Positions 4,595 through 64,000 of a DNA stretch of 64,000 bases are shown here, one piece after another. Below the pieces are notes generated by a model, which was given only the letters and a program-made list of their open reading frames with translations, made no database searches and was not told the DNA's origin. Numbering within the stretch: the first letter of the stretch is position 1; the number at the start of each line of letters is the position of its first letter. Location of the stretch: positions 2,396,115-2,460,114 of the forward strand of contig OZ220714.1 in the NCBI GenBank assembly GCA_965116585.1, read 5' to 3'. This DNA comes from Gammaproteobacteria bacterium (GTDB lineage: Bacteria > Pseudomonadota > Gammaproteobacteria > Eutrophobiales > Eutrophobiaceae). A program made the position numbers and the translations under genes.

Positions 4595-4618
4595 CAGTTC
4601 TCTCCCCGACAAGAGACC

Positions 4619-4770
4619 GCATTCCTCATCATGTGATACGCCCTCACTTGTCTTTGTCCCGCCGGCGGGCACGTGCTCCCTCAACCGTAGCTACGGCTAT
4701 GCTTTCGGTCGCAGGCACCCGCCGGCGGGACAAATCCTGCGCGATCATCGTATCACATGATGAGGAATGC
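4619..4770. repeat. nested-palindrome repeat element, copy 1: outer 22-bp perfect inverted repeat + inner 17-bp stem + conserved core GTGCTCCCTCAACC...GCAGGCACCC
   Basis: Outer IR GCATTCCTCATCATGTGATACG at 4619-4640 and its reverse complement at 4749-4770. Inner stem at 4656-4672 and 4715-4731. Core is shared with the copy at 28252-28359. Confidence 0.8.
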
Positions 4771-5927
4771 GGTCTGACCGCAACAACCTTGTCCGCGGCA
4801 TCACTCAGGCCATCCGCCGAAATAATCTTCAGGCCGCTTTCGTTGAGCAACGCCTTGCCTTCCTCAACCCGCGTGCCTTCCAGTCGCACCACTACCGGAA
4901 GCGTCAGGCCGGTTTCCCGCACCGCGTTGATAATCCCCTCGGCGATCAGGTCGCAGCGCACGATGCCGCCGAAAATATTGACCAGGATCGCTCTTACCCG
5001 GGTGTCGGACATAATCAGTTTGAAGGCTTCCGCCACGCGTTCCGTGGTGGCGCCGCCTCCCACGTCAAGAAAATTCGCCGGTTCGCCGCCGTGCAGCTTG
5101 ATGATGTCCATGGTCGCCATGGCCAGGCCGGCGCCGTTGACCATGCAGGCGATGTCACCGTCCAGTGCAACGTAATTCAGGTCGAACACCTTGGCCTTGT
5201 TTTCCTTCTCATCTTCCTGGCTGGGATCGCGCCAGCTTTCCAGTTCCGCCTGGCGGTACAGGGCATTGTCGTCAACGGCCACCTTGGCGTCCAGGGCCTC
5301 CAGGTCGCCGTCTGCGGTAATGACCAGGGGGTTGATCTCAACCAGGCTGAGGTCCTTGTCCACAAACAAGCGGTACAATCCTGACAGGATTTCAGCCAGT
5401 TGCTTGCCCTGGGCGCCGCTCAGCCCCAGGGCAACGCCCAGCGCCCGGCATTGATATTGCTGCAAGCCCATCACCGGGTCGATGGCAAACGTGAAGATCT
5501 TTTCCGGCTCGGTAGCCGCCACCTCTTCGATGTCCACCCCGCCGGCGGCAGAGGCCATCACCGCAACCCGGCGCTTGCCTCTGTCCACCAGCATGCCCAG
5601 GTAAAGTTCAGAGGCGATATCCGACAAGGAGGACACCAGCACGCAATTCACCGGTTTGCCGTCGGCGCCGGACTGTTTGGTAACCAGGACGCTTCCCAAC
5701 AGGTTGCTCACGTAATCTTCCAGTTCATCCTTGCCGTTGACCAGTCGCACGCCTCCGGCCTTGCCGCGCCCGCCGGCATGGACCTGGGCTTTTACCACCC
5801 AGCTTTTGCCACCCAGTTGCGCCGCGGCAGCCAGCGCGTCCTTGACGGAATGGGCGGGTTGCCCATCCGGCACGGGAATGCCATATTCCGAAAAAAGAAT
5901 TTTTGCCTGGTATTCATGCAGGTTCAT
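4644..5927 (-). CDS. sucC: succinyl-CoA synthetase beta subunit, with a repeat-encoded C-terminal extension
   Basis: [20 protein letters not shown]... ATP-grasp SucC. The canonical C-terminus ...AADKVVAV is followed by about 42 aa ([43 protein letters not shown]) encoded inside the palindromic repeat 4619-4770. Confidence 0.9.
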
Positions 5928-8294: not shown

Positions 8295-8357
8295 TTGACA
8301 TAACCCTGTTTTGCTTTCTATAGTTAACAATTGTGGGAAAAAGTGGGTAATAGTGGT
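8295..8357 (+). promoter_or_regulatory. Pmra promoter (TTGACA-17/18-TATAGT) followed by three GTGG(G/T) direct repeats at 10-bp spacing (MraZ operator)
   Basis: TTGACA 8295-8300, TATAGT 8319-8324. GTGGG at 8333 and 8343, GTGGT at 8353. This matches the known MraZ-binding architecture upstream of dcw clusters. Confidence 0.6.
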
Positions 8358-8383: not shown

Positions 8384-8842
8384 ATGTTCCGGGGTTTCAG
8401 CAGTGTCAGTCTTGACAGTAAAGGCCGGATGGCCATCCCCAGCCGTTATCGTGAACGGCTTGTGGGGGAGGCTGGCGGCGCGCTGATACAGACCTTGAAT
8501 CCCCTGGATCGCTCTCTGTGGTTATACCCCCTGCCTGAATGGGAACTGATCGAGGGGAAACTGGCAGATCTCTCCGATTTTGATACCCAGAGTCGCCGGG
8601 CCAAACAGATGATGCGCGGCTATGCAACCGATTGCCAGTTGGACACACACGGCAGAATCCTGATACCCGCAGAACTGCGGGACTACGCCCAAATCGATAA
8701 ACAGGCCGTGATCCTGGGCCAGGGCAATAAATTTGAAATCTGGAACCGGACCAGTTGGGATGAGCAGCGCGAGCACTGGTTAATGCAAGTGGGTGATGAG
8801 CAGGGTGCGCCGGCCGAAGCCTTGCAATCCTTATCCCTGTGA
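8384..8842 (+). CDS. mraZ: transcriptional regulator MraZ
   Basis: 152 aa with two SpoVT/AbrB-like halves. GGGGG Shine-Dalgarno. Confidence 0.9.
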   Translation: MFRGFSSVSLDSKGRMAIPSRYRERLVGEAGGALIQTLNPLDRSLWLYPLPEWELIEGKLADLSDFDTQSRRAKQMMRGYATDCQLDTHGRILIPAELRDYAQIDKQAVILGQGNKFEIWNRTSWDEQREHWLMQVGDEQGAPAEALQSLSL

Positions 8843-10054: not shown

Positions 10055-11781
10055 GCAGCGGCCTGCTCAAAGTCGTATACAAAGACCGCAGACGGTTGGT
10101 GCTGGCATTGTTTGTCGGCGCTACGCTCGCGGTGGCGGGCCGGGCTTTTTACCTGCAGATTCTGAACAAGGATTTTCTCATCAACGAAGGGAATGCCAGA
10201 GCGGTGCGCAGTGTTACCATCCCCGCCTACCGGGGCATGATCACCGATCGGAACGGCGAACCCATGGGGGTCAGCACGCCGGTGGATTCTGTCTGGGTCG
10301 TGCCCGGAAAAGTACTGGCTTCCGGCGCCGACCTGAAGGAACTGGCCAACCTGCTGGATACGACGGATGCGGTGCTGCGGCAGTCACTCTCAGAGCGGCA
10401 GGACCGGGACTTCTTTTATCTCAAGCGGCATGTGATGCCTGCTACCGCACGCCAGGTACGCGACCTGAAAATACCGGGCATCAACATCGTCAAGGAGTAC
10501 AAGCGCTATTATCCGTTCGGTGAGGTGGCTTCCCACCTGGTCGGATTTACCAATATTGACGACAACGGGCAGGAAGGCATCGAACTGGCTTTTGACGACT
10601 GGTTACGGGGCACGCCGGGGAAGAAAAGGGTATTGAAGGACTTGTACGGTTCGGTCGTCAAGGATATTGAAAACATCAAACAGTCGGTACCCGGTGAAGC
10701 ATTGGTCCTGGCCCTGGACCAGCGCTTGCAGTACCTGGGCTACCGGGAGCTGAGGGCCGCAACGCTCAAGCACAATGCCAAGGGCGGTATGCTGCTGTTG
10801 CTGGACGTCACCACCGGCGAGATCCTGGCGCTGGCGGTACAACCCTCTTTCAATCCCAACAACCGTATCGGTATCAGTGGCACGCACTACCGTAACCGTG
10901 TGGTGACGGACGTGTTCGAACCCGGTTCCACCATCAAACCGTTCACTATCGCGGCGGCGCTGATGTCCGGCCAATACCGCCCCGAGACCATGATCGACAC
11001 GGCGCCGGGACGCCTTTCCATCGGCCGCTACTCGATCAGTGACATCAATAATTACGGCCTGCTGAGCGTGAGCGACGTCATCCGCAAGTCGAGCAACATC
11101 GGCAGCACCAAGGTCGCGCTGTCGTTGGGCGCGGAACCGCTGTGGAAGTTGCACAACGCCGTCGGCTTCGGCAGCCCGACCATGAGCGGCTACCCCGGAG
11201 AGGCGGTGGGCACGCTGGCCGAACCCGGTGACTGGTCCCAGGTCGACCTGGCCGCAGCCTCTTACGGCTACGGCATTTCGGTGACTGCCATGCAGTTGGC
11301 CCAGGCTTATGCGGTGATTGCGTCGGGCGGCCTGTTATACCCGATCAGCTTCCAGAAAGTCAGCGCGCCGCCTGCGGCCCAACGCGTATTGCCGGAAGCC
11401 ATCGCGTTTGAAGTAAATACAATGATGCGTACGGTAGTTGGGGAAGGCGGTAGCGGCAAGCGCGCCGCGGTGGAAGGTTACCACGTTGCCGGCAAGACCG
11501 GCACCGTGCACAAGGCCTCGGCCTCCGGTTACGACGAGGACCGTTACCTGTCGTTGTTTGCCGGCTTTGCTCCGGCCACGGAACCGCGCCTGGTCATGGT
11601 TGTGTTGATCGATGACCCCAGGGCCGGCGATTATTACGGCGGTAAGGTGGCCGCGCCGGTATTCGCCAGTGTCATGCACGGCGCGTTGCGGATATTGAAC
11701 ATCCCGCCCGATAACCTGATCGGGTTAAAACAACGGGCGCTGCTCGCCAACAACAGCGCCCAACTGAGAAATCCGGGCTAG
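10051..11781 (+). CDS. ftsI: peptidoglycan D,D-transpeptidase FtsI (PBP3)
   Basis: 576 aa with STIK, SSN and KTG motifs. Confidence 0.9.
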   Translation: MSSGLLKVVYKDRRRLVLALFVGATLAVAGRAFYLQILNKDFLINEGNARAVRSVTIPAYRGMITDRNGEPMGVSTPVDSVWVVPGKVLASGADLKELANLLDTTDAVLRQSLSERQDRDFFYLKRHVMPATARQVRDLKIPGINIVKEYKRYYPFGEVASHLVGFTNIDDNGQEGIELAFDDWLRGTPGKKRVLKDLYGSVVKDIENIKQSVPGEALVLALDQRLQYLGYRELRAATLKHNAKGGMLLLLDVTTGEILALAVQPSFNPNNRIGISGTHYRNRVVTDVFEPGSTIKPFTIAAALMSGQYRPETMIDTAPGRLSIGRYSISDINNYGLLSVSDVIRKSSNIGSTKVALSLGAEPLWKLHNAVGFGSPTMSGYPGEAVGTLAEPGDWSQVDLAAASYGYGISVTAMQLAQAYAVIASGGLLYPISFQKVSAPPAAQRVLPEAIAFEVNTMMRTVVGEGGSGKRAAVEGYHVAGKTGTVHKASASGYDEDRYLSLFAGFAPATEPRLVMVVLIDDPRAGDYYGGKVAAPVFASVMHGALRILNIPPDNLIGLKQRALLANNSAQLRNPG

Positions 11782-11794
11782 TACCAGGATAATT

Positions 11795-13291
11795 ATGTTG
11801 CCGGCACGCAATCGACACATCGGGATGCCATTGCGAACGCTGCTGCAAGGGATCAGCGACGCCGTGACCGAAGCAGACGTCACGGTGCAGGGGATCAGCG
11901 CCGACAGCCGTAACATCCGAGCCGGTGATGTATTCCTGGCTTGCCGGGGCGCGCAAACCCGCGGCAGCCTGTTCATCCGGGATGCCATCAAGGCAGGGGC
12001 GGCCGCAGTGGTTGTGGACGCGGCCTTGTTGTCCGACCTGGACCGGCGCCTGGCGGTGCTGGTTCCGGTGGCGAACCTGCGTGACAAACTGGGCTTGATC
12101 GCCGGCCGGTTTTACGGAGAACCCACGCGGCAACTGCGCCTGACCGGAGTCACCGGGACCAACGGCAAAACCTCGGTCTGCTGGTGGGCGGCGCAGCTCC
12201 ATTCAGCGCTCACCGGGAAACCGGCGGGTCTGGTCGGCACCCTTGGCTACGGTTGCTTCCCGGAACTGGAAACCGGCGCTAACACGACGCCGGGAGCGCT
12301 TGAACTGCAACGCCTGTGTACCGGTTTTCTCGACGCCGGCGCGGACACGGCGTTTATGGAAGTGTCATCCCATGCCCTGGACCAGGGACGCGTGAACGGC
12401 GTCGATTTCGACCTGGCCGTGTTCACCAACCTGAGCCGGGATCACCTGGACTATCACCACAGCCTGGATGAGTACTTCGAGGCCAAGCAAAAACTGTTCA
12501 GGTTCGAATCATTGCGCGCGGCCGTGGTGAACGGCGATGACGTTTACGGGCGCGCGCTACTGCAAAACCTGCCCGCGCAGGTGGAAGCGATCAGCTATGG
12601 CCTCGCGCCCGGGCCGCGGCAACCGCTGGTGCGCGCAACATTGGCGCCGGGGGCCGAGTTGGTGCTGGATATTACCAGTCCCTGGGGGCGCGGCCAGGTG
12701 CGCCCGGGCGTGACGGGAAAATTCAATGCCGGTAATCTCCTGGCCGTGGTCTCCACCCTGTGCCTGGCGGGACTGCCGCTGGAGCAGGTGCTGGAACAAC
12801 TGGAAAACCTGGCCCCCCCGCCTGGCCGTATGGAGCGTTTCACCCGTGCCGACGGGGCGCGTATCATTGTCGATTACGCGCACACGCCTGCTGCCCTGGA
12901 GCAGGCGCTGCGCGCGCTGCGGGAAGGTTGTGCGGCGCGCCTGATCTGCGTTTTCGGTTGCGGCGGCGAGCGCGACCGGGACAAACGGGCGCTGATGGGA
13001 GAGGTGGCGGAACGCCTCGCCACTGAGGTCATCCTGACCGATGACAACCCGCGCGGCGAACCCGGCGCCGACATCATCGCGGCCATTCTCTCCGGCATGA
13101 GCAAGCAGGCCAGGGTGTGTGTTGAACGCAACCGTTCCAGTGCGATTGAACTTGCCTTGCACGAGGCCGGGCCTGATGACGTGGTGTTGATCGCCGGCAA
13201 AGGCCATGAGACCAGCCAGGACATAGCGGGCCAGCGTTATCCGTTCAGCGATCGGCAACAGGTACGGATGCTGCTGGAGCAAGCGGGGTGA
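11795..13291 (+). CDS. murE: UDP-N-acetylmuramoyl-L-alanyl-D-glutamate--2,6-diaminopimelate ligase
   Basis: Mur ligase with GTNGKT P-loop and DNPR motif. Start could be the internal Met at 11825. Confidence 0.88.
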   Translation: MLPARNRHIGMPLRTLLQGISDAVTEADVTVQGISADSRNIRAGDVFLACRGAQTRGSLFIRDAIKAGAAAVVVDAALLSDLDRRLAVLVPVANLRDKLGLIAGRFYGEPTRQLRLTGVTGTNGKTSVCWWAAQLHSALTGKPAGLVGTLGYGCFPELETGANTTPGALELQRLCTGFLDAGADTAFMEVSSHALDQGRVNGVDFDLAVFTNLSRDHLDYHHSLDEYFEAKQKLFRFESLRAAVVNGDDVYGRALLQNLPAQVEAISYGLAPGPRQPLVRATLAPGAELVLDITSPWGRGQVRPGVTGKFNAGNLLAVVSTLCLAGLPLEQVLEQLENLAPPPGRMERFTRADGARIIVDYAHTPAALEQALRALREGCAARLICVFGCGGERDRDKRALMGEVAERLATEVILTDDNPRGEPGADIIAAILSGMSKQARVCVERNRSSAIELALHEAGPDDVVLIAGKGHETSQDIAGQRYPFSDRQQVRMLLEQAG

Positions 13292-56234: not shown

Positions 56235-57662
56235 TTATAACACAGGAGAGGAAATCATAACATGTTCATGCCCCGGCGCTTGCGGGACAGCTTCCTGCGC
56301 CGCATCTGCATAGCTCAGGTGCGCCAGCATAGCGTTGTACTTGCGTATGTTTTCCACAAACCTGACCGGTTCACCGCCCCTGGCATGGCCGAACCGGGTC
56401 TGCGAGTACCACTCATGCCGGCTCAACAGGGGCAGGTTCTGTTTCACGTCGGCCCAGACATCAGGGTTGCCGCCGTTCTTTTCGGTGATCATCCTGGCAT
56501 CTTCCAGGTGGCCGAAGCCAACGTTGTAAGCAGCCAGGGCGAGCCAGGTGCGGTCCGGTTCGGGTATGCGCTCCGGTATTTTATTTACCAGGGTGGTCAG
56601 ATACCTGGCGCCGCCATGGATGCTCAGCACCGGGTCCAGGCGATCGCTGATGCCGACCTGTTGCGCGGTTTGCAGAGTCAGCATCATCAGCCCGCGCACG
56701 CCGGTTGGTGAGCGCGCCGTTTTTTTCCAATGGGATTCCTGATAGCTGATGGCGGCCAACAAGCGCCAGTCAAAGCCAAACTCGTTCTCGGCGCTCATGA
56801 AATAAGGTTTCAGCTCCGGCAACACCTCGTTATAACGATCGATGAACCGGCGTGTCTCCACGTAATCAAGTGAATCTGCAAAGGTGTAGCTCTGCTCCAG
56901 CAGTTCGTCCAGTTGGCCATTATCCCTGATGTGCTCGTGAAACTGCCGGATTGCCCCGAGCAGAGAGTCATCACCCGGTATGCGTTTGACTGCCCAGCCC
57001 AGTGGCTCGGGAGAACTCAGGTCAAAGGCTACTCGTAGTTCCGGCAGGGAGATGCGTGCCAGGGCCACTTCGTTGGAACCCGCCACACCGTAGAGGATTT
57101 GACCGTATTCCACCATTTCCAGCAGGTCGAAGCTGTCCTTGTCCTCGTGTATCACCAGTTCCAGGTCAGGATAATGGAAGCGCAAGCGTTCGAGTTCCTC
57201 CCGCGGGAGGGCATTAGGGGTGAGGTGCAGCTTGTGCGGGGTTATCCCGGCCAGTGTGGCTGGACGGATATAACCGTAACGGTACACCACCTGGTGGGTC
57301 ACCCACTGGAAGCCCGGACCGTACCTCAGCGGGTCCTCCGGCCTGAACGTCCTGGTCAGGCCGGCCGCGGCAAGGTCAGCCTGCCCGGAGGCCAGTAGAT
57401 CACTTATCTCCTTCCTGTCGTGCGCGAGGATCAGTTTGAAATCAATATCCATCCAGTCCGCGCACAGTCTCACCAGTTCGTATTCCAGTCCGCGTTCCAC
57501 TTTTTCCCTGTTCTGCTCATACGTCGCCGGGTTCAGTGTGGTGGCCACATGCAGCGTGCCGCGCGCACGGATCAGTTCCAGTTGGGATGTTTCCTCGGCG
57601 CAACCCGGCAGTAGCAGGCAGACGGACAGCGCAAGCAAGAGAGGGAAAAGTTTCACCGTCAA
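56235..57662 (-). CDS. mltF: membrane-bound lytic murein transglycosylase F
   Basis: Lipoprotein signal (LLPGC), solute-binding-like domain plus SLT domain. Confidence 0.85.
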
Positions 57663-58660
57663 ACCCGTTGCGCCAGCACCAGGGAGAAATAGCGGTTATC
57701 CGGCTCAAAGTGGCGGATGATCGCCAGTCCGGACTCTGCCAGTAATGTTTCCAGTTCATCAAAGTAAAACTTGTAACTTAACTCGGTCATTATCTCCTCA
57801 CTGCATTCCAGTCGGAAGCTCAGGCCGGCTTTGCCCAGGGTAATGTCCTGGCGCAAGCGGGACACCAGGTACATCTCTATTCTGCCCGACTCGTTATTGT
57901 ATATGGCCTGGTGGACAAAATTATCCATCCGGAAGTTCCCATCCAGTTCACGGTTCAGGACGTGTAACAGATTCAGATTGAACTTTGCGGTGATTCCCTG
58001 TGCATCGTTGTAGGCGGCATTCAGTACGGTGGCATCCTTTACCCGGTCTGCGCCCAGTAACAGGAAATCACCCGGCTCCATCTGTCGGTGGATAGCGCTG
58101 ATGAAGGCGCGCGCTTCCCCAGGGTTGAAATTACCGATTGTGCTGCCCAGGAACAGGAACATCCTGACGCCGGAACAGTCCGGCAAGTGTTCCAGTCCCG
58201 CGAGGTAGTCTCCCAGCAACAGCCTGATTTCCAGCCAGTGGTATTTATCCTGTAGTCTGCCGGCTGCTTCCAGCAAGGATGACTCACAGATATCGAAGGG
58301 CATATACCCGCAGCGATGGCCTTGCCGTTCACAGGCATCGAACAGGTTCATGGTCTTGTTCGAGCTGCCGCTGCCCAGTTCGATGAGGTAATCGGGGCAG
58401 GTCAGCATGATGATATCATTGCCATGGCGCTGTAATAACGCTGCCTCGGTACGGGTCAGGTAGTACTCAGGCGTTGCGCAGATATGACGGAACAACAGTG
58501 CCCCGCGTGCGTCGTAAAAATATTTGGGAGGTAGGGAGCGTGGAGGTGTGGCCAGTCCCGCCCGGGCATCCTCCTTCAGGTCGGGCACATGTCTGGCCGG
58601 CACTATCGGGAGGCATTGAATATCAGTCGAATGACGTTTGAGGTCGGTGGTGGTTTCCAT
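57659..58660 (-). CDS. EgtD-like SAM-dependent histidine N-alpha-methyltransferase family protein
   Basis: PKYFYDARGALLFRHICATPEYYLTRTE... matches the EgtD/Methyltransf_33 N-terminus. Stop overlaps the mltF start by 4 nt. Confidence 0.7.
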   Translation of the reverse strand: METTTDLKRHSTDIQCLPIVPARHVPDLKEDARAGLATPPRSLPPKYFYDARGALLFRHICATPEYYLTRTEAALLQRHGNDIIMLTCPDYLIELGSGSSNKTMNLFDACERQGHRCGYMPFDICESSLLEAAGRLQDKYHWLEIRLLLGDYLAGLEHLPDCSGVRMFLFLGSTIGNFNPGEARAFISAIHRQMEPGDFLLLGADRVKDATVLNAAYNDAQGITAKFNLNLLHVLNRELDGNFRMDNFVHQAIYNNESGRIEMYLVSRLRQDITLGKAGLSFRLECSEEIMTELSYKFYFDELETLLAESGLAIIRHFEPDNRYFSLVLAQRV

Positions 58661-58704: not shown

Positions 58705-59946
58705 ATGACCAAGTCAGCCCGATATTTTCTACTGTTGCTGAGCGTGCACTTGTCTCAACCTTCGGCGCAGGACTCTGTTGATGCCGAACAGCAGCAAGCC
58801 GCCGCCAACTACGAAGCGCGTATCACCGAACTGGAGGCAGCCGCTGGTCCCCACGCCGCAGAGCTTGCCGAGGTTCGTTTGAGTCTGGGTTTGTTGCGCC
58901 AACAGGCGGGAGACCATGGGCAGGCGCTGGCGGCGTTGCAGGACGCGCTGCAAACGGTGCGCGTCAACGACGGGCTGTACAGCATGAGCCAGATCGCCAT
59001 TCTGGAAGCCATCATCGACAGCCATGTGGCCCTGGGCGCCAGGGACGAACTGCGCCGCGACTACGAATACCTGTTCTGGTTATACTCGCGCAACTACGGC
59101 ACGGATAACGCCGGCCTCGTGCCGGTGATAAAGAGAGTAGGGCAGTGGTACTTCAATCTGTATAACCTGGCGCCGCCCAACACAACAGTAGAGCCCCTGA
59201 TAGCCGCAGACGATCTGTATGCAAAAGCGCTGAAGATTCTGCCTGAAGACAGCCCGTCCCGGGACCGGATAGACATATTATATAAGGTAGCTGTCATCAA
59301 CCATCACATCGCTGAGGACATAAAGGACCCCATGCTTTCCCACCGGGAGATACGTGAAGCCATGATCCCGCATGGCCGGGCCTCTCCCTATGTCAACGAA
59401 GTGGCTGTGCGGCAGTACTATGCCGACCAGAGTTTCTACAAGGGCAAGCGTTCACTGAAGCGTATCGTAGAGTCTTATGAAAAAGACCTGCCCGGTACGC
59501 TGATGGACTATGCCCGGGCGCTGGTGTTCATGGGCGACTGGCTGACCGTACAGCGCCGGGTGATGGAAGGCGCCCGCATGTATCGACGCGCCTGGGCCGC
59601 CCTGGCCGACCACAACGCAGACCCGGCCCAGGTGGATGAACTGTTCGGCGAGCCGCAGCCCATTGAGCAGCTTCCCATCCCCGGCGAACCGGAACCGGAA
59701 GCCGATCAGGACAGCTACTACGTAGACGCGCTGCTGGACGTACCCGCATCAGGCTGGCCCCGGAATATCAGGATACAGGCAACCCACCCGTCCGCAGAAA
59801 CCACGTTAATCAAACGCGCCGAACGCGGTATTGCAGCTACTCGCTACCGTCCCCGCTACGACAGCGGCCAACCGGTCGGCACTACGGATATTTCCCTGCG
59901 CTTCGTCTTCAAGTACCAGCAGCAGCCCGGCTGGTTTCATTTTTGA
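58705..59946 (+). CDS. secreted hypothetical protein, TPR-like N-region plus TonB-C-like C-terminal domain
   Basis: Signal peptide; C-terminal ~90 aa resemble the TonB_C fold. Confidence 0.55.
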   Translation: MTKSARYFLLLLSVHLSQPSAQDSVDAEQQQAAANYEARITELEAAAGPHAAELAEVRLSLGLLRQQAGDHGQALAALQDALQTVRVNDGLYSMSQIAILEAIIDSHVALGARDELRRDYEYLFWLYSRNYGTDNAGLVPVIKRVGQWYFNLYNLAPPNTTVEPLIAADDLYAKALKILPEDSPSRDRIDILYKVAVINHHIAEDIKDPMLSHREIREAMIPHGRASPYVNEVAVRQYYADQSFYKGKRSLKRIVESYEKDLPGTLMDYARALVFMGDWLTVQRRVMEGARMYRRAWAALADHNADPAQVDELFGEPQPIEQLPIPGEPEPEADQDSYYVDALLDVPASGWPRNIRIQATHPSAETTLIKRAERGIAATRYRPRYDSGQPVGTTDISLRFVFKYQQQPGWFHF

Positions 59947-60269
59947 TCTGGCAACATTTCAGGTTGAACGGCCTAAACCAAGTTCGGAAACAGTCTGGAA
60001 ATAGATAGTCCTGAGACAGATGACAGAGATGAGCGTCATACGAGTCGCGACAGATTATTTTCCATGACAGATTCCTCCTTATCGGTTCGGTTCAGTTGGC
60101 GTTCAACAACAGCCGGACATGGAAGACCGGCACGTGATAATATCAGTCTATGCGGGAGGAAAAGGGTGAGGGGAGAAAAATTCCAGAGTAATTTCGGGAC
60201 AAGCAGGCCGGAAGCCCTGGACAAACACCCGAATATAGGTAAAAATACCCCAATTCGGTCATTTTGGCG

Positions 60270-60590
60270 TATACTTGACAGGAATTCCTGATAAACTACT
60301 AAAAACTTGACATCAGAATATTTTTTTTCTTATTATTCTGTTGACAACACTGAACAAACCTGACATATTGCGAACATTTTAAGGCAACAGGGGCATTCAG
60401 CGGGCAAATACGTTGACAGACCTGCAACTTTTTTCTATTATGCAGTTGACATATTCCATGAATAGCGGCATATTGCAACATATCAGAAAAGGTTGTATCA
60501 TGGCCAACAGACCATGGGGAGCCCCATTGACAAGATTTAGAAAGTTAGTTGTTGACATATACACGCCAAAGTGCGATATTTGTGAACAAT
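60270..60590 (+). promoter_or_regulatory. tandem sigma70-like promoter array in an AT-rich island: 7 TTGACA hexamers, two of them in near-identical TTGACA-N17-ttttttc-TATTAT modules
   Basis: TTGACA at 60275, 60307, 60341, 60413, 60446, 60527, 60552. TATTAT at 60331 and 60436. AGGAG Shine-Dalgarno at 60672-60676 before the RTX ATG. Confidence 0.55.
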
Positions 60591-60684
60591 GATTGTTTTT
60601 TTTCAAAAGTATGTAATAATGCGATTTACCGCATAAATACGTAAAGAATTCGTTTACTTCTACTGATTAACAGGAGAAAAAGAT

Positions 60685-63600
60685 ATGCCTTACAAAGTCG
60701 AAACTATGTTGATGGGAGGGGATGCGCCTAATGACACCTCGACAGAACTTTGCTTCAATCCGCCCAATGGGCCGTTCGAGGGCAACGAGGTAACGGGCAC
60801 CATCACCACAAGGGGCGATGAAGACTGGATTGCCATAGAACTCAGTGAGGGCAAGGAATACACCATTACCGTGGCTACCAGGCATACCATGGATGCTGAC
60901 GATACAGTCGATTCTGATGAGGATGGTACGGATGATAACGATCGGGACGCTGGCGGCCTCAACGACTCCGTCCTGAAGTTGCTGGATGGCAAGGGTGGCG
61001 TGATCGACATGAACGACGATATCGACGCGGCAAAGGGCATGCTGAATTCGGAGTTGAAGTTTACGCCTGAGGCAGGCAGCGGTACGCAGAAGTATTACAT
61101 CAGCGTCAGTGGCTACACGGGCAACCCGGGCGCCAATAATACCGGTGGTTACACAGTCTCAGTGTCAGAGAAGGCTGTGTTGGCGGTTGGTTCGGGTGTG
61201 GGCATACCGGGCACCGACAATGCTGACAAGCTTTTCGGTACTGACCTGTCAGAATCCATTACAGGTATGGGCGGCGATGACACCATAGACGGCATGGGCG
61301 GCGATGACACCATAGACGGCGGTGACGGCAACGACCTGCTTATCGGCGGCAAGGGCGCTGACAAGCTGACGGGTGGTGATGGGGACATGGACACCATAAG
61401 CTACCGTGGTTCCGTAGCAGGCGTGACCATCAACTTGTCTGACGGCACGGCCAGGGGTGGCGATGCTGAGGGCGATACGATTAGCGATGATATTGAGAAC
61501 GTCATAGGTTCCGAACATGACGACATGCTGACCGGCAACAGGGCAGTCAACAGTCTCTGGGGCCTGGGCGGCAATGATGAACTCGACGGTGGTCGCAGAA
61601 ATGACAAGCTGTACGGCGGCGCTGGCGATGACATGCTGGACGGCGGCGCCGGCAATGATACGCTGGAAGGCGGTTACGGCGCCGACATGCTGACCGGTGG
61701 CGAGGGCGATGATACTGCCTCCTACAGCATGTCCATGATGGGCGTCACGGTGCGCCTGCACAGTGGCCAGGCCATGGGCGGTGACGCCGAAGGCGACACC
61801 TGGAACCTGTCTGTTCCCCAAACGTATACCAACGGTGATGAAGAAGAGGTTGAAGTAAACCTTGCCGATATCATAAACCTGACCGGTTCGGCCAATGACG
61901 ACATCCTGGCGGGCGACATGAGGGACAACATCATCATGGGCGGCGCCGGCAACGACAGGATTTACGGTGGCCCGAACCCGGCTGATGCGGACACGGAGTC
62001 GGATGCAGGCCTTAGCAATGCCGACACCCTGCACGGTGACGGCGGCGACGACAGGATCTTCGGCGGCATCGGCGGCGATATCCTCAGGGGCGGCGCCGGG
62101 GATGACATGCTGCATGGCGGTCCGGGTAATGACACGTTCTGGGGTGGCCACGGTAGCGACATGATCTACGCCGATGCTATGGATACCCACATTTATGGCA
62201 ATCGCCCGGATAATACCGAGCCGGACGGTACCGTGATTGACCCTGCTACTGCTGACGTTGACGAAAGCATGGAAATGGAAGGCGATGTCGACACCGTTTC
62301 CTATGCGAGGCTGGAAGAGGGAATAACCAGGACACTTGGTAGTGATGGAACGGGCAGTGCAGATGCGACTGATGGTACTAATATTCTCATTATGGGAATT
62401 GAAAACATTATCGGCACCCAAGGTGATGACACTATTACCGGCGATACCGGTGCTAACGTTATCGAAGGTGGTGAAGGCGGTGATGACCTTGACGGCGGAG
62501 ATGGAATCGATACCCTTTCTTATGAAAGTTCCGACGACTGGGTCAGAGTAACACTGAATGGCGCTAGCGCGGCGACTACCTCCAGGGGGCATGCTTCAGG
62601 CGATGAGGCCGAGAATTTCGAAAACCTCACAGGGTCTGCTTATGATGACGACCTGACCGGTGATGATGTGGCGGCTGGGAATGTGATCAAGGGTCTGGCC
62701 GGCGATGATGATATCGAAGGCATGGGCGGCAACGACACAATAGAAGGTGGCGCCGGCGCCGATGAGTTGGACGGCGGTTACACTCCTGTTAATGCTGCGG
62801 GTACTGATGCGGGTACTAGTCCGGCTGATGATGGTAATAGGAATTTCGAAGCGAACACCTTGTCCTATGCAAATTCAGACGCGGGTGTCACGGTGAACCT
62901 GGCGACTGCCAGTGCTTCCGGCGGCCATGCTACGGGCGATACCATTGCGACTTACGAAGAGCTTTCTCCCACGACCGAGGATCCGGACAACGAGGTTGAC
63001 GTTGCTACGTTTGCGCACGTCGTCGGGTCCATGTACGGTGACCGGCTGACCGGTGACAAACAAGACAACCACCTGACCGGTGGCGGTGGTGATGACACCC
63101 TCAGGAGTGGAGCCGGCGCCGACCGCGTTATAGGCGGCCCCGGTGCGGACGTGCTCGACGGTGGCGAGGACATGGGTGAAAAGAACGATATGGTCCCGAA
63201 CCCTGCATTTGATGCCACACTGGATGAAAGTGATGCTAATCCCAGAATGGTCGCCGCTTCCGTGGACTGGGCAGTCTACAAGCACGCGGCGGCGGGCGTC
63301 ACGGTGGACCTGTCAACCGGCATGGGCACCGGCGGTGAGGCCATGGGCGATACTTTGATGAACATTGAGTTGATCTGGGGTTCCGAACATGCCGACACCT
63401 TCATAGCCAGTTCCGGAGCCGATACCATCGAAGGTGACGGCGGCAGCGATACCGTCTCCTACGAGGCCTCGTCAATGGGCGTCACGGTCAACCTGGGTGA
63501 AAGCACTCAGCACAGGATAGCGACAGCCACTGGCACAGGCACCGAGGCCGACCCGTTTGTATTCCCTGTAGACGATCCGGCTACGGTCGTTCGGCCTACG

Positions 63601-64000
63601 GCTGGTGTGCCCAGATTGGACGCAATGGGTAATCCATTCGTTGATGGTACTAACGTTGAGCATGAGGACGACAACCCGAATGCCAATGGCGCTGCGGGTG
63701 ACAGGCTGGGCAGTATCGAGAACCTGACCGGTTCCAACCAGAAGGACATGCTGACCGGCGATGCCAACCCCAACGTCCTCAAGGGCATGGGCGGCGATGA
63801 TACGCTGAGCGGTGGCACTGGTGGCGAAGATAAGCTCTATGGTGGAGACGGTGATGATATGCTGACCGGCTCTGGTAGCGATGGTGACATGCTGGATGGC
63901 GGAGCAGGCGATGATACGATCATCGGCAGCACTGGTGATGATACGATCACCGGCGGCGCCGGCGATGACGACCTGAGCGGCGGCACTGGCAATGATACAT
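60685..64000 (+). CDS. giant RTX (hemolysin-type calcium-binding GGxGxDxUx repeat) protein, N-terminal PPC-like domain; 3' end beyond window
   Basis: Hand translation from ATG 60685 is open for 1105 codons to the window end. N-terminus has G.I..RGDEDWIAIELSEGKEYTITV...DSVLKLLDGKG...YYISVSGY (pre-peptidase C-terminal-like), then dozens of GG[AD]G[ND]D nonapeptides. Not in the ORF track because no stop occurs in the window. Confidence 0.85.
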   Translation, partial: MPYKVETMLMGGDAPNDTSTELCFNPPNGPFEGNEVTGTITTRGDEDWIAIELSEGKEYTITVATRHTMDADDTVDSDEDGTDDNDRDAGGLNDSVLKLLDGKGGVIDMNDDIDAAKGMLNSELKFTPEAGSGTQKYYISVSGYTGNPGANNTGGYTVSVSEKAVLAVGSGVGIPGTDNADKLFGTDLSESITGMGGDDTIDGMGGDDTIDGGDGNDLLIGGKGADKLTGGDGDMDTISYRGSVAGVTINLSDGTARGGDAEGDTISDDIENVIGSEHDDMLTGNRAVNSLWGLGGNDELDGGRRNDKLYGGAGDDMLDGGAGNDTLEGGYGADMLTGGEGDDTASYSMSMMGVTVRLHSGQAMGGDAEGDTWNLSVPQTYTNGDEEEVEVNLADIINLTGSANDDILAGDMRDNIIMGGAGNDRIYGGPNPADADTESDAGLSNADTLHGDGGDDRIFGGIGGDILRGGAGDDMLHGGPGNDTFWGGHGSDMIYADAMDTHIYGNRPDNTEPDGTVIDPATADVDESMEMEGDVDTVSYARLEEGITRTLGSDGTGSADATDGTNILIMGIENIIGTQGDDTITGDTGANVIEGGEGGDDLDGGDGIDTLSYESSDDWVRVTLNGASAATTSRGHASGDEAENFENLTGSAYDDDLTGDDVAAGNVIKGLAGDDDIEGMGGNDTIEGGAGADELDGGYTPVNAAGTDAGTSPADDGNRNFEANTLSYANSDAGVTVNLATASASGGHATGDTIATYEELSPTTEDPDNEVDVATFAHVVGSMYGDRLTGDKQDNHLTGGGGDDTLRSGAGADRVIGGPGADVLDGGEDMGEKNDMVPNPAFDATLDESDANPRMVAASVDWAVYKHAAAGVTVDLSTGMGTGGEAMGDTLMNIELIWGSEHADTFIASSGADTIEGDGGSDTVSYEASSMGVTVNLGESTQHRIATATGTGTEADPFVFPVDDPATVVRPTAGVPRLDAMGNPFVDGTNVEHEDDNPNANGAAGDRLGSIENLTGSNQKDMLTGDANPNVLKGMGGDDTLSGGTGGEDKLYGGDGDDMLTGSGSDGDMLDGGAGDDTIIGSTGDDTITGGAGDDDLSGGTGNDT

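What the first reader, a model, noticed from the sequence alone, without database searches (positions are those of the whole stretch)
59947..60684. AT-rich ~740-bp island with a tandem array of consensus -35/-10 promoters upstream of the RTX gene
GC drops far below the window average. Seven TTGACA hexamers occur in 285 bp, several about 33 bp apart. Two form nearly identical modules, TTGACA-N17(ending ttttttc)-TATTAT, at 60307-60336 and 60413-60441. The island also has repeated CATATTGC(G)AACAT motifs and four GACAGA / ATGACAGA repeats at 60015-60071. The layout resembles rRNA-type tandem promoters or a densely regulated virulence/adhesin promoter. It may instead be an H-NS-type silenced region of foreign origin.
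Basis: seen in the sequence. Interest (0 to 1): 0.6.

Follow-up and report, generated by a model that had tools for sequence, protein, structure and literature searches.

The report
Conserved tandem promoter array before RTX gene
The AT-rich stretch is real, and its last ~385 bases are a conserved block of five or six back-to-back standard bacterial promoters plus a conserved leader in front of a secreted calcium-binding (RTX) protein gene in uncultured, apparently sponge-associated bacteria; this is an unusually large example of a known kind of control region, probably built for very high expression.

Summary
Seven TTGACA hexamers lie on the + strand within 283 bp, against 0.52 expected; none of 20,000 shuffles reached seven. 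Five of the eight best sigma-70-type sites in the 64-kb window are here.

The 738-bp island has two parts. Bases 59947-60299 are poorly conserved and hold the relic of a deleted divergent gene. The 60275 hexamer and the GACAGA repeats sit there and are not conserved.

Bases ~60300-60684 form a conserved cassette. I found 13 full copies in related Gammaproteobacteria MAGs, each ending at the ATG of an RTX/PPC-domain gene, in different neighbourhoods.

Conservation peaks on the hexamers. P2, P4 and P5 (TTGAC[A/T]-N17-[C/G]ATATT) have 30/36 invariant hexamer columns against 11/53 spacer columns (p=5e-9). Spacers keep 17 bp while their sequence drifts. These promoters sit ~105 bp (ten helical turns) apart. 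P1 and P3 overlap them and are less conserved. P6 is a possible extended -10 promoter.

No Rfam hit, covariation, stable fold or terminator supports an RNA element. The RTX ORF has genome-typical GC, which argues against foreign, silenced DNA.

Verdict: a real tandem housekeeping-promoter array with a conserved leader. It is a new member of a known kind. Transcription itself is untested.

The parts
59947..60056 (.). Non-conserved filler after the stop of the 413-aa ORF. Holds three of the four GACAGA repeats.
   Evidence: Does not align convincingly with L001. GACAGA positions.
60057..60299 (-). Relic of the 5' end and upstream region of a divergent minus-strand gene. SD AAGGAGG plus ATG at 60064-60062, now only 9 codons. 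Includes the non-conserved TTGACA at 60275.
   Evidence: Homologous to the region upstream of a 213-aa PD-(D/E)XK-like gene in L001. 60275 aligns to TTTGCA in L001 and reads TTGGCA in strain L081.
60300..60306 (+). A-rich tract (AAAAAC) directly upstream of the P1 -35. Conservation of the cassette starts here, and about 20 bp earlier in most relatives. Possible UP-element-like sequence.
   Evidence: Mean pairwise identity 0.84, against 0.42 for the 15 bp before it.
60307..60336 (+). P1: TTGACA-N18-TATTAT. Predicted start ~60343. Overlaps P2.
   Evidence: Scores 11/12. The -35 is TTGACA in 11/13 copies, the spacer is mostly 18, and the -10 is TACTAT or TATTAT in 11/13. Both hexamers have decayed in L008.
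60341..60369 (+). P2: GTTGACA-N17-(TGa)CATATT, with an extended -10 TG. Predicted start ~60376; 5' UTR ~309 nt.
   Evidence: The -35 is invariant in 13/13, the spacer is 17 in 12/13, and the -10 is CATATT in 11/13. Hexamer identity is 1.00/0.90 against 0.67 for the spacer.
60400..60425 (+). Inverted repeat GCGGGCA...(TTGACA)...CCTGC bracketing the P3 -35, followed by a T-run at 60430-60435.
   Evidence: 84% of cells are paired, but covariation is not significant (16/500 and 61/500 shuffles reach the observed values). The fold z-score is -2.0. The scan calls no terminator here.
60413..60441 (+). P3: TTGACA-N17-TATTAT. Predicted start ~60448. Overlaps P4. The least conserved module.
   Evidence: Scores 11/12. 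The -35 is perfect in only 6/13, the spacer ranges 16-19, and the -10 is lost in L004.
60446..60474 (+). P4: GTTGACA-N17-CATATT. Predicted start ~60480; 5' UTR ~205 nt.
   Evidence: Both hexamers are invariant in 13/13 (identity 1.00/1.00). The spacer is 17 in 10/13 and 16 in 3/13, with identity 0.72.
60527..60532 (+). Box X: a TTGACA/CTGACA hexamer with no -10 partner, 25 bp upstream of the P5 -35. It is the counterpart of the P1/P3 -35 in a shortened third unit.
   Evidence: The TGAC core is kept in 11 of 13 copies (L008 reads ATGATC; the low-coverage contig L075a has a gap here), and the X-to-P5 distance is 24-27 in 12 of 13 copies.
60552..60580 (+). P5: GTTGAC(A/T)-N17-(TGc)GATATT, with an extended -10 TG. 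Predicted start ~60587; 5' UTR ~98 nt.
   Evidence: The -35 is TTGACT or TTGACA in 12/13, the spacer is 17 in 11/13, and the -10 is GATATT in 12/13. Hexamer identity is 0.90/0.97 against 0.56 for the spacer.
60612..60620 (+). P6 candidate: extended -10 TGtAATAAT without a good -35. Predicted start ~60627; 5' UTR ~58 nt.
   Evidence: The hexamer scores 5/6 in 8/13 copies (AATAAT in 6, GATAAT in 2) and 4/6 in 3 more. Loci that lack the array (L073, L074, L077) keep homology to the cassette only from about here onward.
60621..60645 (+). Variable, indel-rich zone between the array and the leader.
   Evidence: Mean pairwise identity is 0.19. The P6 -10 to ATG distance, which spans this zone, varies from 59 to 94 nt.
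60646..60684 (+). Conserved leader GAATTCGTTTACTTCTA...ACAGGAGAAA, with SD AGGAG at 60672-60676. A CUUCU tract upstream could pair with the SD.
   Evidence: Identity is 0.81, with 17 consecutive invariant bases in 11 of 13 copies. It is also kept in four loci that lack the array. The predicted hairpin varies by G-U-compatible single changes only and has no compensatory change.
60685..64000 (+). RTX-repeat protein gene with an N-terminal PPC-like domain. It runs off the window; the product is 1160 aa in the near-identical strain L081.
   Evidence: HemolysinCabind E=4e-73. PPC E=1.3e-4, below Pfam's cut-off. Only beta-roll matches in the PDB. The L081 gene and its C-terminus ...DGGFIL come.

Best explanation
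Bases ~60300-60684 are the dedicated control region of the RTX gene. It is a cassette of co-oriented housekeeping (sigma-70-type) promoters followed by a conserved leader with a strong Shine-Dalgarno.

The core is three non-overlapping promoters: P2 (-35 at 60341), P4 (60446) and P5 (60552). Each is TTGAC(A/T), a 17-bp spacer and (C/G)ATATT. Two of them carry an extended -10 TG. They sit ~105-106 bp apart, about ten helical turns, which leaves room for three polymerases at once on the same face of the DNA.

P2 and P4 are each preceded, 33-34 bp upstream, by an overlapping TTGACA-N17/18-TAYTAT module (P1, P3). The T-rich spacer of that module falls where an UP element of P2/P4 would lie. P1 and P3 are therefore either extra promoters or polymerase-recruiting auxiliaries.

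A sixth candidate, the extended -10 promoter P6, lies closest to the gene. The units arose by duplication of a ~105-bp module.

The expected output is a nested set of mRNAs with 5' UTRs of roughly 58 to 340 nt, all sharing the conserved leader. The net effect would be very high and robust transcription of a type-I-secreted RTX protein, as is seen for abundant surface or secreted proteins.

Shown: the sequence anatomy, the conservation pattern and the linkage to RTX genes. Inferred: that each module fires, the start sites, and the high-expression purpose.
For: Enrichment
- 7 TTGACA against 0.52 expected, 0/20,000 shuffles.
- 5 of the 8 best promoter-like sites in 128 kb of both strands lie here. 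One of the three others sits ~60 bp upstream of mraZ, where a housekeeping promoter is expected; this serves as an internal control.

Comparative evidence
- 13 full copies in related MAGs, always abutting the ATG of an RTX/PPC gene, in unrelated neighbourhoods.
- P2/P4/P5 hexamer columns are invariant in 30/36, against 11/53 spacer columns (Fisher p=5e-9). The most conserved 6-mers of the array are exactly the hexamers.
- Spacer length is held at 17 while spacer sequence changes.
- P2-P4 and P4-P5 distances are held at 102-107 bp, apart from one 2x-coverage contig.
- Conservation starts at the A-tract before the first -35.
- In a 98.3%-identical strain, none of the 8 substitutions in the cassette hits a P1-P5 hexamer.
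- L008 carries an extra upstream P2-like unit, which shows modular duplication.

Against RNA-level readings
- No Rfam family.
- The RNAalifold covariation term is +2.78, i.e. unfavourable.
- Fold z-scores run from -0.2 to -2.0.
- No terminator-like site is called inside the island.

Precedent
- Three tandem promoters at E. coli kps PR1 and tandem polymerase sites at fis (PMC5738388).
- Two promoters plus long leaders at S-layer genes (PMC3666127).
Against: - No transcript data exist for any of these uncultured organisms, so no start site is mapped.
- The -10 hexamers of the best-conserved modules are non-consensus (C/G at -12, T at -8). These bases are themselves conserved, which hints at a constraint beyond plain sigma-70 recognition.
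- P1/P2 and P3/P4 overlap, so both members of a pair cannot be occupied at once.
- Box X is conserved without a -10 partner, so TTGACA may also serve something other than a -35.
- Spacers and inter-promoter segments are still 56-72% identical, which is more than neutral DNA would be at this divergence. Further signals (regulator sites, RNA features) probably coexist.
- Several copies come from low-coverage long-read contigs with indel errors.
- The RTX genes are often next to mobile-element genes, so part of the similarity could reflect recent transfer rather than long purifying selection.
Confidence: 0.72

Rival explanations
1. Only one or two modules are productive promoters, for example P5/P6 nearest the gene or P1/P2 at the 5' edge. 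The remaining TTGACA boxes would be auxiliary DNA sites. They could hold idling polymerases that stimulate or throttle the real promoter, as proposed for fis. Alternatively they could be operators for a regulator that recognises (G)TTGACA direct repeats.
For: - Box X is conserved without a -10.
- P1 and P3 are much less conserved than P2 and P4, and overlap them.
- The T-tract plus TAYTAT lies where an UP element of P2/P4 would be (sequence).
- Loci L073, L074 and L077 keep only the P6 region plus leader and still carry intact RTX 5' ends.
- The fis precedent is quoted in PMC5738388.
Against: The -10 partners of P2, P4 and P5 are as conserved as the -35 boxes, and sit at a fixed 17 bp. That is the signature of polymerase open-complex sites rather than of a regulator's operator. 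No second half-site or palindrome accompanies the boxes.
Confidence: 0.17
2. The region is mainly an RNA-level element. Either it is a long structured 5' UTR transcribed from P1/P2, or short RNAs are made from P2 and ended at the inverted repeat plus T-run (60400-60435). In both cases the repeated motifs would act in the RNA.
For: - An inverted repeat brackets the P3 -35 and is followed by T6. 84% of cells pair, and a few changes are compensatory.
- The leader could pair CUUCU with the SD.
- Inter-promoter segments are conserved at 58-65%.
Against: - No Rfam hit, even at E<=10.
- The covariation term is unfavourable.
- Helix statistics are not distinguishable from shuffles.
- Fold z-scores are weak.
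- The T-run is separated from the stem by 3-5 nt, and the scan calls no terminator inside the island.
- Indels that are not multiples of three rule out a conserved leader peptide.
Confidence: 0.06
3. The region is an AT-rich, horizontally acquired stretch bound and silenced by an H-NS-like nucleoid protein. Its promoter-like hexamers would be spurious products of AT-richness.
For: - GC is 0.35-0.40 against 0.586 for the window.
- RTX genes with this cassette sit next to integrase, IS and Tn7-like genes in some relatives.
Against: - Composition-matched shuffles never reproduce the hexamer count.
- All boxes are on one strand and point at the gene.
- The hexamers are the most conserved columns.
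- The RTX ORF itself has GC 0.55-0.63, like its surroundings.
- H-NS binding is not excluded, but it cannot explain the pattern.
Confidence: 0.05

Closest known systems
Tandem promoter regions of highly expressed surface or secreted protein genes. Examples: two promoters plus a long stabilising 5' UTR at Lactobacillus slpA genes (PMC3666127); multiple tandem promoters of the Brevibacillus brevis cell-wall-protein operon (from my own knowledge, not checked here).
   Same: Several co-oriented housekeeping promoters are stacked upstream of one gene for an abundant exported protein, followed by a long untranslated leader and a strong SD.
   Different: The hosts here are uncultured Gammaproteobacteria and the product is an RTX type-I-secretion-type protein. 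There are five or six modules built from a duplicated ~105-bp unit with overlapping promoter pairs. The gene product has not been shown to be an S-layer or an abundant protein.
E. coli kps capsule PR1 region with three tandem promoters, and the fis promoter with tandem polymerase-binding sites (PMC5738388).
   Same: Tandem promoters about 100-130 bp apart upstream of a surface-structure locus. An upstream promoter can influence a downstream one through supercoiling or an idling polymerase.
   Different: PR1 covers several hundred bp (reporter constructs reach -646) with weakly matching promoters, and its regulation involves IHF. Here the promoters are near-consensus, tightly phased at ~105 bp and repeated as duplicated modules. 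No regulator sites have been identified.
rRNA operon P1-P2 tandem promoters and the phage T7 A1-A2-A3 early promoter cluster (from my own knowledge).
   Same: Strong sigma-70 promoters are arrayed ~100-125 bp apart with A/T-rich upstream sequences. The discriminators of P2 and P4 are partly G+C-rich (GCGA/GCAA).
   Different: The downstream gene is a protein gene, not rRNA or a phage early operon. No FIS-site or antiterminator (boxA) features were looked for or seen. The -10 hexamers are CATATT/GATATT rather than TATAAT.

Membership tests
Sigma-70 (housekeeping) promoter | -35 hexamer close to TTGACA | tested here: met
   Perfect TTGACA at P1-P5 in the window. Invariant in 13/13 copies at P2 and P4; TTGACT or TTGACA in 12/13 at P5.
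Sigma-70 (housekeeping) promoter | -10 hexamer with A at position 2 and T at position 6, placed 17 +/- 1 bp from the -35 | tested here: met
   TATTAT, CATATT and GATATT with spacers of 17-18. The spacer is 17 in 12/13, 10/13 and 11/13 copies at P2, P4 and P5.
Sigma-70 (housekeeping) promoter | Selection acts on the hexamers and on spacer length, not on spacer sequence | tested here: met
   30/36 hexamer columns are invariant against 11/53 spacer columns, p=5e-9. Identity is 0.96 against 0.65.
Sigma-70 (housekeeping) promoter | Transcription initiates 6-8 nt downstream of the -10 | not testable with these tools
   No transcriptome or start-site data are available for these MAGs.
Tandem promoter array serving one gene | Two or more co-oriented promoters with no intervening gene or terminator upstream of a single ORF | tested here: met
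   All modules are on the + strand within 60307-60620. No conserved ORF (indels not in threes). No terminator-like site is called inside the island.
Tandem promoter array serving one gene | Each promoter is independently active | not testable with these tools
   Needs reporter fusions or start-site mapping.
rRNA-type P1-P2 promoters | Drive an rRNA operon, with an UP element, a G+C-rich discriminator and FIS sites | tested here: not met
   The downstream gene is an RTX protein gene. A/T-rich upstream tracts and GCGA/GCAA discriminators are only partial resemblances. This is an analogy, not membership.
H-NS-silenced xenogeneic island | AT-rich relative to the genome across the acquired gene(s), not only in the intergenic region | tested here: not met
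   Only the intergenic region is AT-rich (0.35-0.40). The RTX ORF is 0.55-0.63, like its flanks.
H-NS-silenced xenogeneic island | Occupancy by an H-NS-like protein | not testable with these tools
   Requires ChIP.
Structured cis-regulatory RNA or sRNA gene | Match to a described RNA family, or a conserved secondary structure with covariation | tested here: not met
   Only chance-level Rfam hits, best E=0.82 and far below gathering scores. Covariation term +2.78. The one candidate helix is not significant. Fold z-scores are -0.2 to -2.0.
RTX / type I secretion substrate (downstream gene) | Tandem GGxGxDxUx nonapeptide repeats | tested here: met
   HemolysinCabind E=4.2e-73, 11 stretches. Beta-roll matches to CyaA, lipase and serralysin.
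RTX / type I secretion substrate (downstream gene) | Adjacent ABC transporter / membrane-fusion protein genes | tested here: not met
   In the near-identical strain L081 the ~5.8 kb read beyond the RTX gene encodes radical-SAM, glycosyltransferase, MlaC/MlaA and dehydrogenase genes and the end of a malate-synthase-like gene, with no T1SS genes. They may lie elsewhere.

The most novel reading that the evidence does not exclude
The cassette is a cooperative, helically phased 'polymerase landing pad' that travels with RTX genes among sponge-associated Gammaproteobacteria. Three core promoters are held exactly ten helical turns apart. Each is coupled to an overlapping upstream TTGACA module that loads or parks a second polymerase. 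Output would then be set by promoter-promoter interaction (supercoiling coupling or handover) and by unit copy number, which varies between genomes. Additionally or alternatively, P2 could emit a short regulatory RNA ending at the 60400-60435 hairpin and T-run.
Probability: 0.12. Interest if true: 0.6.

Novelty: new member of a known kind. Interest (0 to 1): 0.4.

Why it matters
- It marks this RTX/PPC protein as probably one of the most strongly transcribed genes of an uncultured, apparently sponge-associated gammaproteobacterial lineage. That makes it a priority candidate for a surface-layer, adhesin or host-interaction protein.
- It gives a clean natural example of promoter multiplication by duplication of a ~105-bp module, with conserved helical phasing. 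This could be used to study promoter-promoter interplay.
- It could serve as a compact strong-expression cassette for marine Gammaproteobacteria.
- It shows that comparative genomics alone can separate functional hexamers from AT-rich noise in organisms that have no transcriptomics.
- It does not reveal a new kind of mechanism.

Tried and rejected
- **Rfam scan** of 59500-61000 at E<=10 gave only chance snoRNA/gltS hits.
- **Tandem Repeats Finder** found nothing. The units are too diverged.
- **RNAalifold** on 8 copies gave no supported consensus structure.
- **The hairpin around the P3 -35**, tested with pair counts, was not significant.
- **Single-sequence folds** of the predicted transcripts gave weak z-scores.
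- **Exact-match scan of JGI metagenome contigs** with the invariant leader 17-mer GAATTCGTTTACTTCTA returned 55 loci. All were chance matches by nhmmer. The family is absent from that collection.
- **The window's own 413-aa protein** is not on record exactly. A 99% relative was used instead.
- **N-terminal RTX homologues** were mostly fragments at contig ends or on low-coverage contigs. L078 keeps only the SD region.
- **Conserved small ORF or leader peptide** (e.g. 60413-60592): rejected because indels are not in threes.
- **Sigma-54 reading of GGCATATTGCA**: rejected because the GG-GC spacing is wrong (by inspection).
- **CsrA-site reading** of the CAnGGGGA/ACAGGAG motifs: considered and left unsupported.
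- **Literature searches** for expression of RTX proteins in sponge symbionts found nothing directly relevant.

Full report
**1. What is at the coordinates**

The interval 59947-60684 is exactly the intergenic region between two + strand ORFs. The upstream ORF encodes 413 aa (58705-59946) and has no Pfam or NCBIfam match; some homologues carry a TPR domain. The downstream ORF starts with ATG at 60685 and runs off the window.

The downstream product carries 11 stretches of RTX nonapeptide repeats (HemolysinCabind, E=4e-73). It also has a weak N-terminal PPC-like domain.

In a strain whose 413-aa gene is 98.3% identical at the DNA level, the RTX protein is 1160 aa and ends ...DGGFIL. The ~5.8 kb read beyond its gene holds no type I secretion genes. 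Against the PDB it matches only beta-roll segments of CyaA, lipases and serralysins.

**2.

- GC falls to 0.405 for the island and 0.351 for its 3' half, against 0.586 for the window.
- TTGACA occurs seven times on the + strand in 60275-60557 and never on the - strand of the island.
- Dinucleotide-preserving shuffles of the island itself give 0.52 copies on average. None of 20,000 reaches seven.
- The promoter scan finds 9 sites in 59000-61500 against 2.5 expected.
- In my scan of the whole window, only eight sites score >=10/12 on both strands. Five of them are P1-P5:

| Module | Coordinates |
|---|---|
| P1 | 60307-60336 |
| P2 | 60341-60369 |
| P3 | 60413-60441 |
| P4 | 60446-60474 |
| P5 | 60552-60580 |

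- One of the three other sites (8295, TTGACA-N18-TATAGT) lies ~60 bp upstream of mraZ. A housekeeping promoter is expected there, so it serves as an internal control that this organism uses the classical consensus.

**3. Relatives show that the island has two parts**

The neighbouring 413-aa protein has 71-83% identical homologues in uncultured Gammaproteobacteria MAGs. Several bin names are of the type used in sponge-microbiome studies; that reading is my inference from the names.

A profile of the 3' part of the island finds 13 full-length copies:
- the window;
- L001, L004, L005, L008, L012, L013, L015, L076, L079 and L080, one copy each;
- L075, two copies.

Each full copy whose downstream gene could be read (12 of the 13) ends at the ATG of an RTX/PPC-type gene; the second L075 copy (2505-2904) lies on a 2x-coverage contig where the gene calls after it are too fragmented to tell. 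The upstream neighbours differ: nuclease-like genes, a Tn7-like TnsE, ankyrin-repeat genes and others.

Four further RTX loci (L072, L073, L074, L077) keep only the last 50-95 bp. L078 keeps only the SD region.

The JGI metagenome collection holds no copy.

The 5' part (59947-60299) aligns only with the closest alignable locus, L001, and only from ~60057 onward. There it corresponds to the SD, start codon and upstream region of a divergent 213-aa PD-(D/E)XK-like gene. In the window that gene is reduced to nine codons.

The first TTGACA (60275) and the GACAGA repeats lie in this relic and are not conserved. 60275 reads TTGGCA in the near-identical strain L081.

**4. Anatomy of the conserved cassette (~60300-60684)**

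Conservation begins at the A-tract just before the P1 -35.

- **P2 and P4.** TTGACA is invariant in 13/13 copies. The spacer is 17 bp in 12/13 and 10/13. The -10 is CATATT in 11/13 and 13/13.
- **P5.** The -35 is TTGACT or TTGACA in 12/13, the spacer is 17 bp in 11/13, and the -10 is GATATT in 12/13. P2 and P5 also carry a TG at the extended -10 position.
- **Spacer sequences drift.** The P4 spacer, for example, reads TATTCCATGAATAGCGG, TACCCCACAAATATCGG or TAATTAATGAATATCGG in different copies.

Conservation in ten non-redundant copies:

| Columns (P2, P4, P5) | Mean pairwise identity | Invariant columns |
|---|---|---|
| Hexamers | 0.96 | 30/36 |
| Spacers | 0.65 | 11/53 |

The invariant-column contrast gives Fisher p=5e-9. 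The top-ranked 6-mers of the array are the hexamers themselves.

The P2-P4 and P4-P5 distances are held at 102-107 bp, with modes of 105 and 106, about ten helical turns. The one exception is a 2x-coverage contig.

- **P1 and P3** (TTGACA-N17/18-TAYTAT) lie 33-34 bp upstream of P2 and P4 and overlap them. They are less conserved: P1 is lost in L008, and the P3 -35 is perfect in only 6/13. Their T-rich spacers occupy the position of an UP element for P2/P4; this is my inference from established promoter architecture.
- **Box X** (60527) is the same box in a shortened third unit and has no -10 partner.
- **P6**, an extended -10 candidate (TGtAATAAT, 60612-60620), is where the homology of the array-less loci L073, L074 and L077 to the cassette begins.
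- **Variable zone** (60621-60645): indel-rich, identity 0.19.
- **Leader** (60646-60684): identity 0.81, with GAATTCGTTTACTTCTA invariant in 11 of 13 copies and SD AGGAG at 60672-60676.

Units 1, 2 and 3 are recognisably homologous to each other. L008 has an additional P2-like unit ~190 bp further upstream. The array therefore grew by duplication of a ~105-bp module, and the unit number differs between genomes.

Between the window and the 98.3% strain, 13 substitutions fall in the relic half and 8 in the cassette. None of the 8 falls in a P1-P5 hexamer.

**5. RNA-level and other alternatives**

- Rfam gives only chance-level hits.
- RNAalifold gives a weak consensus fold with an unfavourable covariation term of +2.78.
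- The best candidate helix is an inverted repeat bracketing the P3 -35 and followed by a T-run. It pairs in 84% of cells but cannot be told apart from shuffles.
- Predicted transcripts fold no better than shuffled sequence, with z-scores from -0.2 to -2.0.
- The scan calls no terminator inside the island.
- Indels rule out a conserved small ORF.
- The H-NS / foreign-DNA idea does not explain strand-polar, hexamer-centred conservation. The RTX ORF has normal GC. H-NS binding itself cannot be tested here.

**6. Most likely mechanism**

This is a tandem array of housekeeping promoters feeding one conserved leader and a strong SD. It should give nested mRNAs with 5' UTRs of ~58-340 nt and high, robust expression of a secreted RTX protein.

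P2, P4 and P5 are the best-supported promoters. P1, P3 and box X may be extra promoters or polymerase-recruiting sites. P6 may be the basal promoter. The conserved ~105-bp phasing suggests that the promoters are meant to be occupied together, or to interact.

Known parallels are the three tandem promoters of E. coli kps PR1 and the tandem polymerase sites at fis (PMC5738388). S-layer genes with two promoters and long leaders are another (PMC3666127). rRNA P1-P2, T7 A1-A3 and the Brevibacillus cell-wall-protein operon are parallels recalled from my own knowledge.

What remains inferred: activity of each module, the start sites, and the abundance and role of the protein.

**7. Verdict**

It is a new and unusually elaborate member of a known kind (tandem promoter regions), not a new mechanism. 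Interest is moderate at 0.4. It would rise if promoter cooperation, copy-number tuning or a P2-derived small RNA were demonstrated.

Noticed in passing
window 60036-60084 (minus strand); L001:10953-11588 and 11609-12186; L012:9090-12036; L015:7479-8027; L013:9015-9791: A multi-copy family of ~190-213-aa proteins with an N-terminal coiled coil and weak Hjc/AHJR-like PD-(D/E)XK nuclease hits. Up to four tandem copies sit divergently just upstream of the RTX cassette in several relatives. The window keeps only its SD, ATG and nine codons.
   Followed up: partly
window 8295-8324 (+), upstream of mraZ (8384-8842): A near-consensus TTGACA-N18-TATAGT site ~60 bp before mraZ at the head of the dcw cluster. 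It is one of only three other sites scoring >=10/12 in the window and is probably the Pmra-type promoter.
   Followed up: partly
L008:11601-11675: An extra copy of the P2-type unit (T-tract, TGTTAT, TTGACA-N17-CATATT) ~190 bp upstream of the regular array, in the one genome where P1 has decayed. Unit number therefore varies between genomes.
   Followed up: partly
L075:2505-2904 and 4595-5003: Two full copies of the promoter cassette 2 kb apart on one contig, each apparently before an RTX-type gene. The contig has 2x coverage and many frameshifts, so gene calls are fragmented.
   Followed up: no
L072:3858-6748: Here an integrase gene ends ~130 bp upstream of the leader and replaces the whole array. 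An IS (rve/HTH_Tnp_1) splits the RTX gene after its PPC domain, an example of decay of the locus.
   Followed up: no
window 58705-59946 (+) and 57659-58660 (-): The 413-aa ORF has no family assignment, although some homologues carry TPR_12. In the window and in the relatives examined it is paired divergently with an EgtD-type histidine methyltransferase gene. In 8 of 16 related genomes the RTX cassette lies 0.4-5.2 kb downstream of it.
   Followed up: partly
window 60015-60071 (+): Four GACAGA copies in 57 bp (two in a local GACAGAtGACAGAg duplication) are unusual for chance. They are window-specific, lie in the gene relic and remain unexplained.
   Followed up: partly
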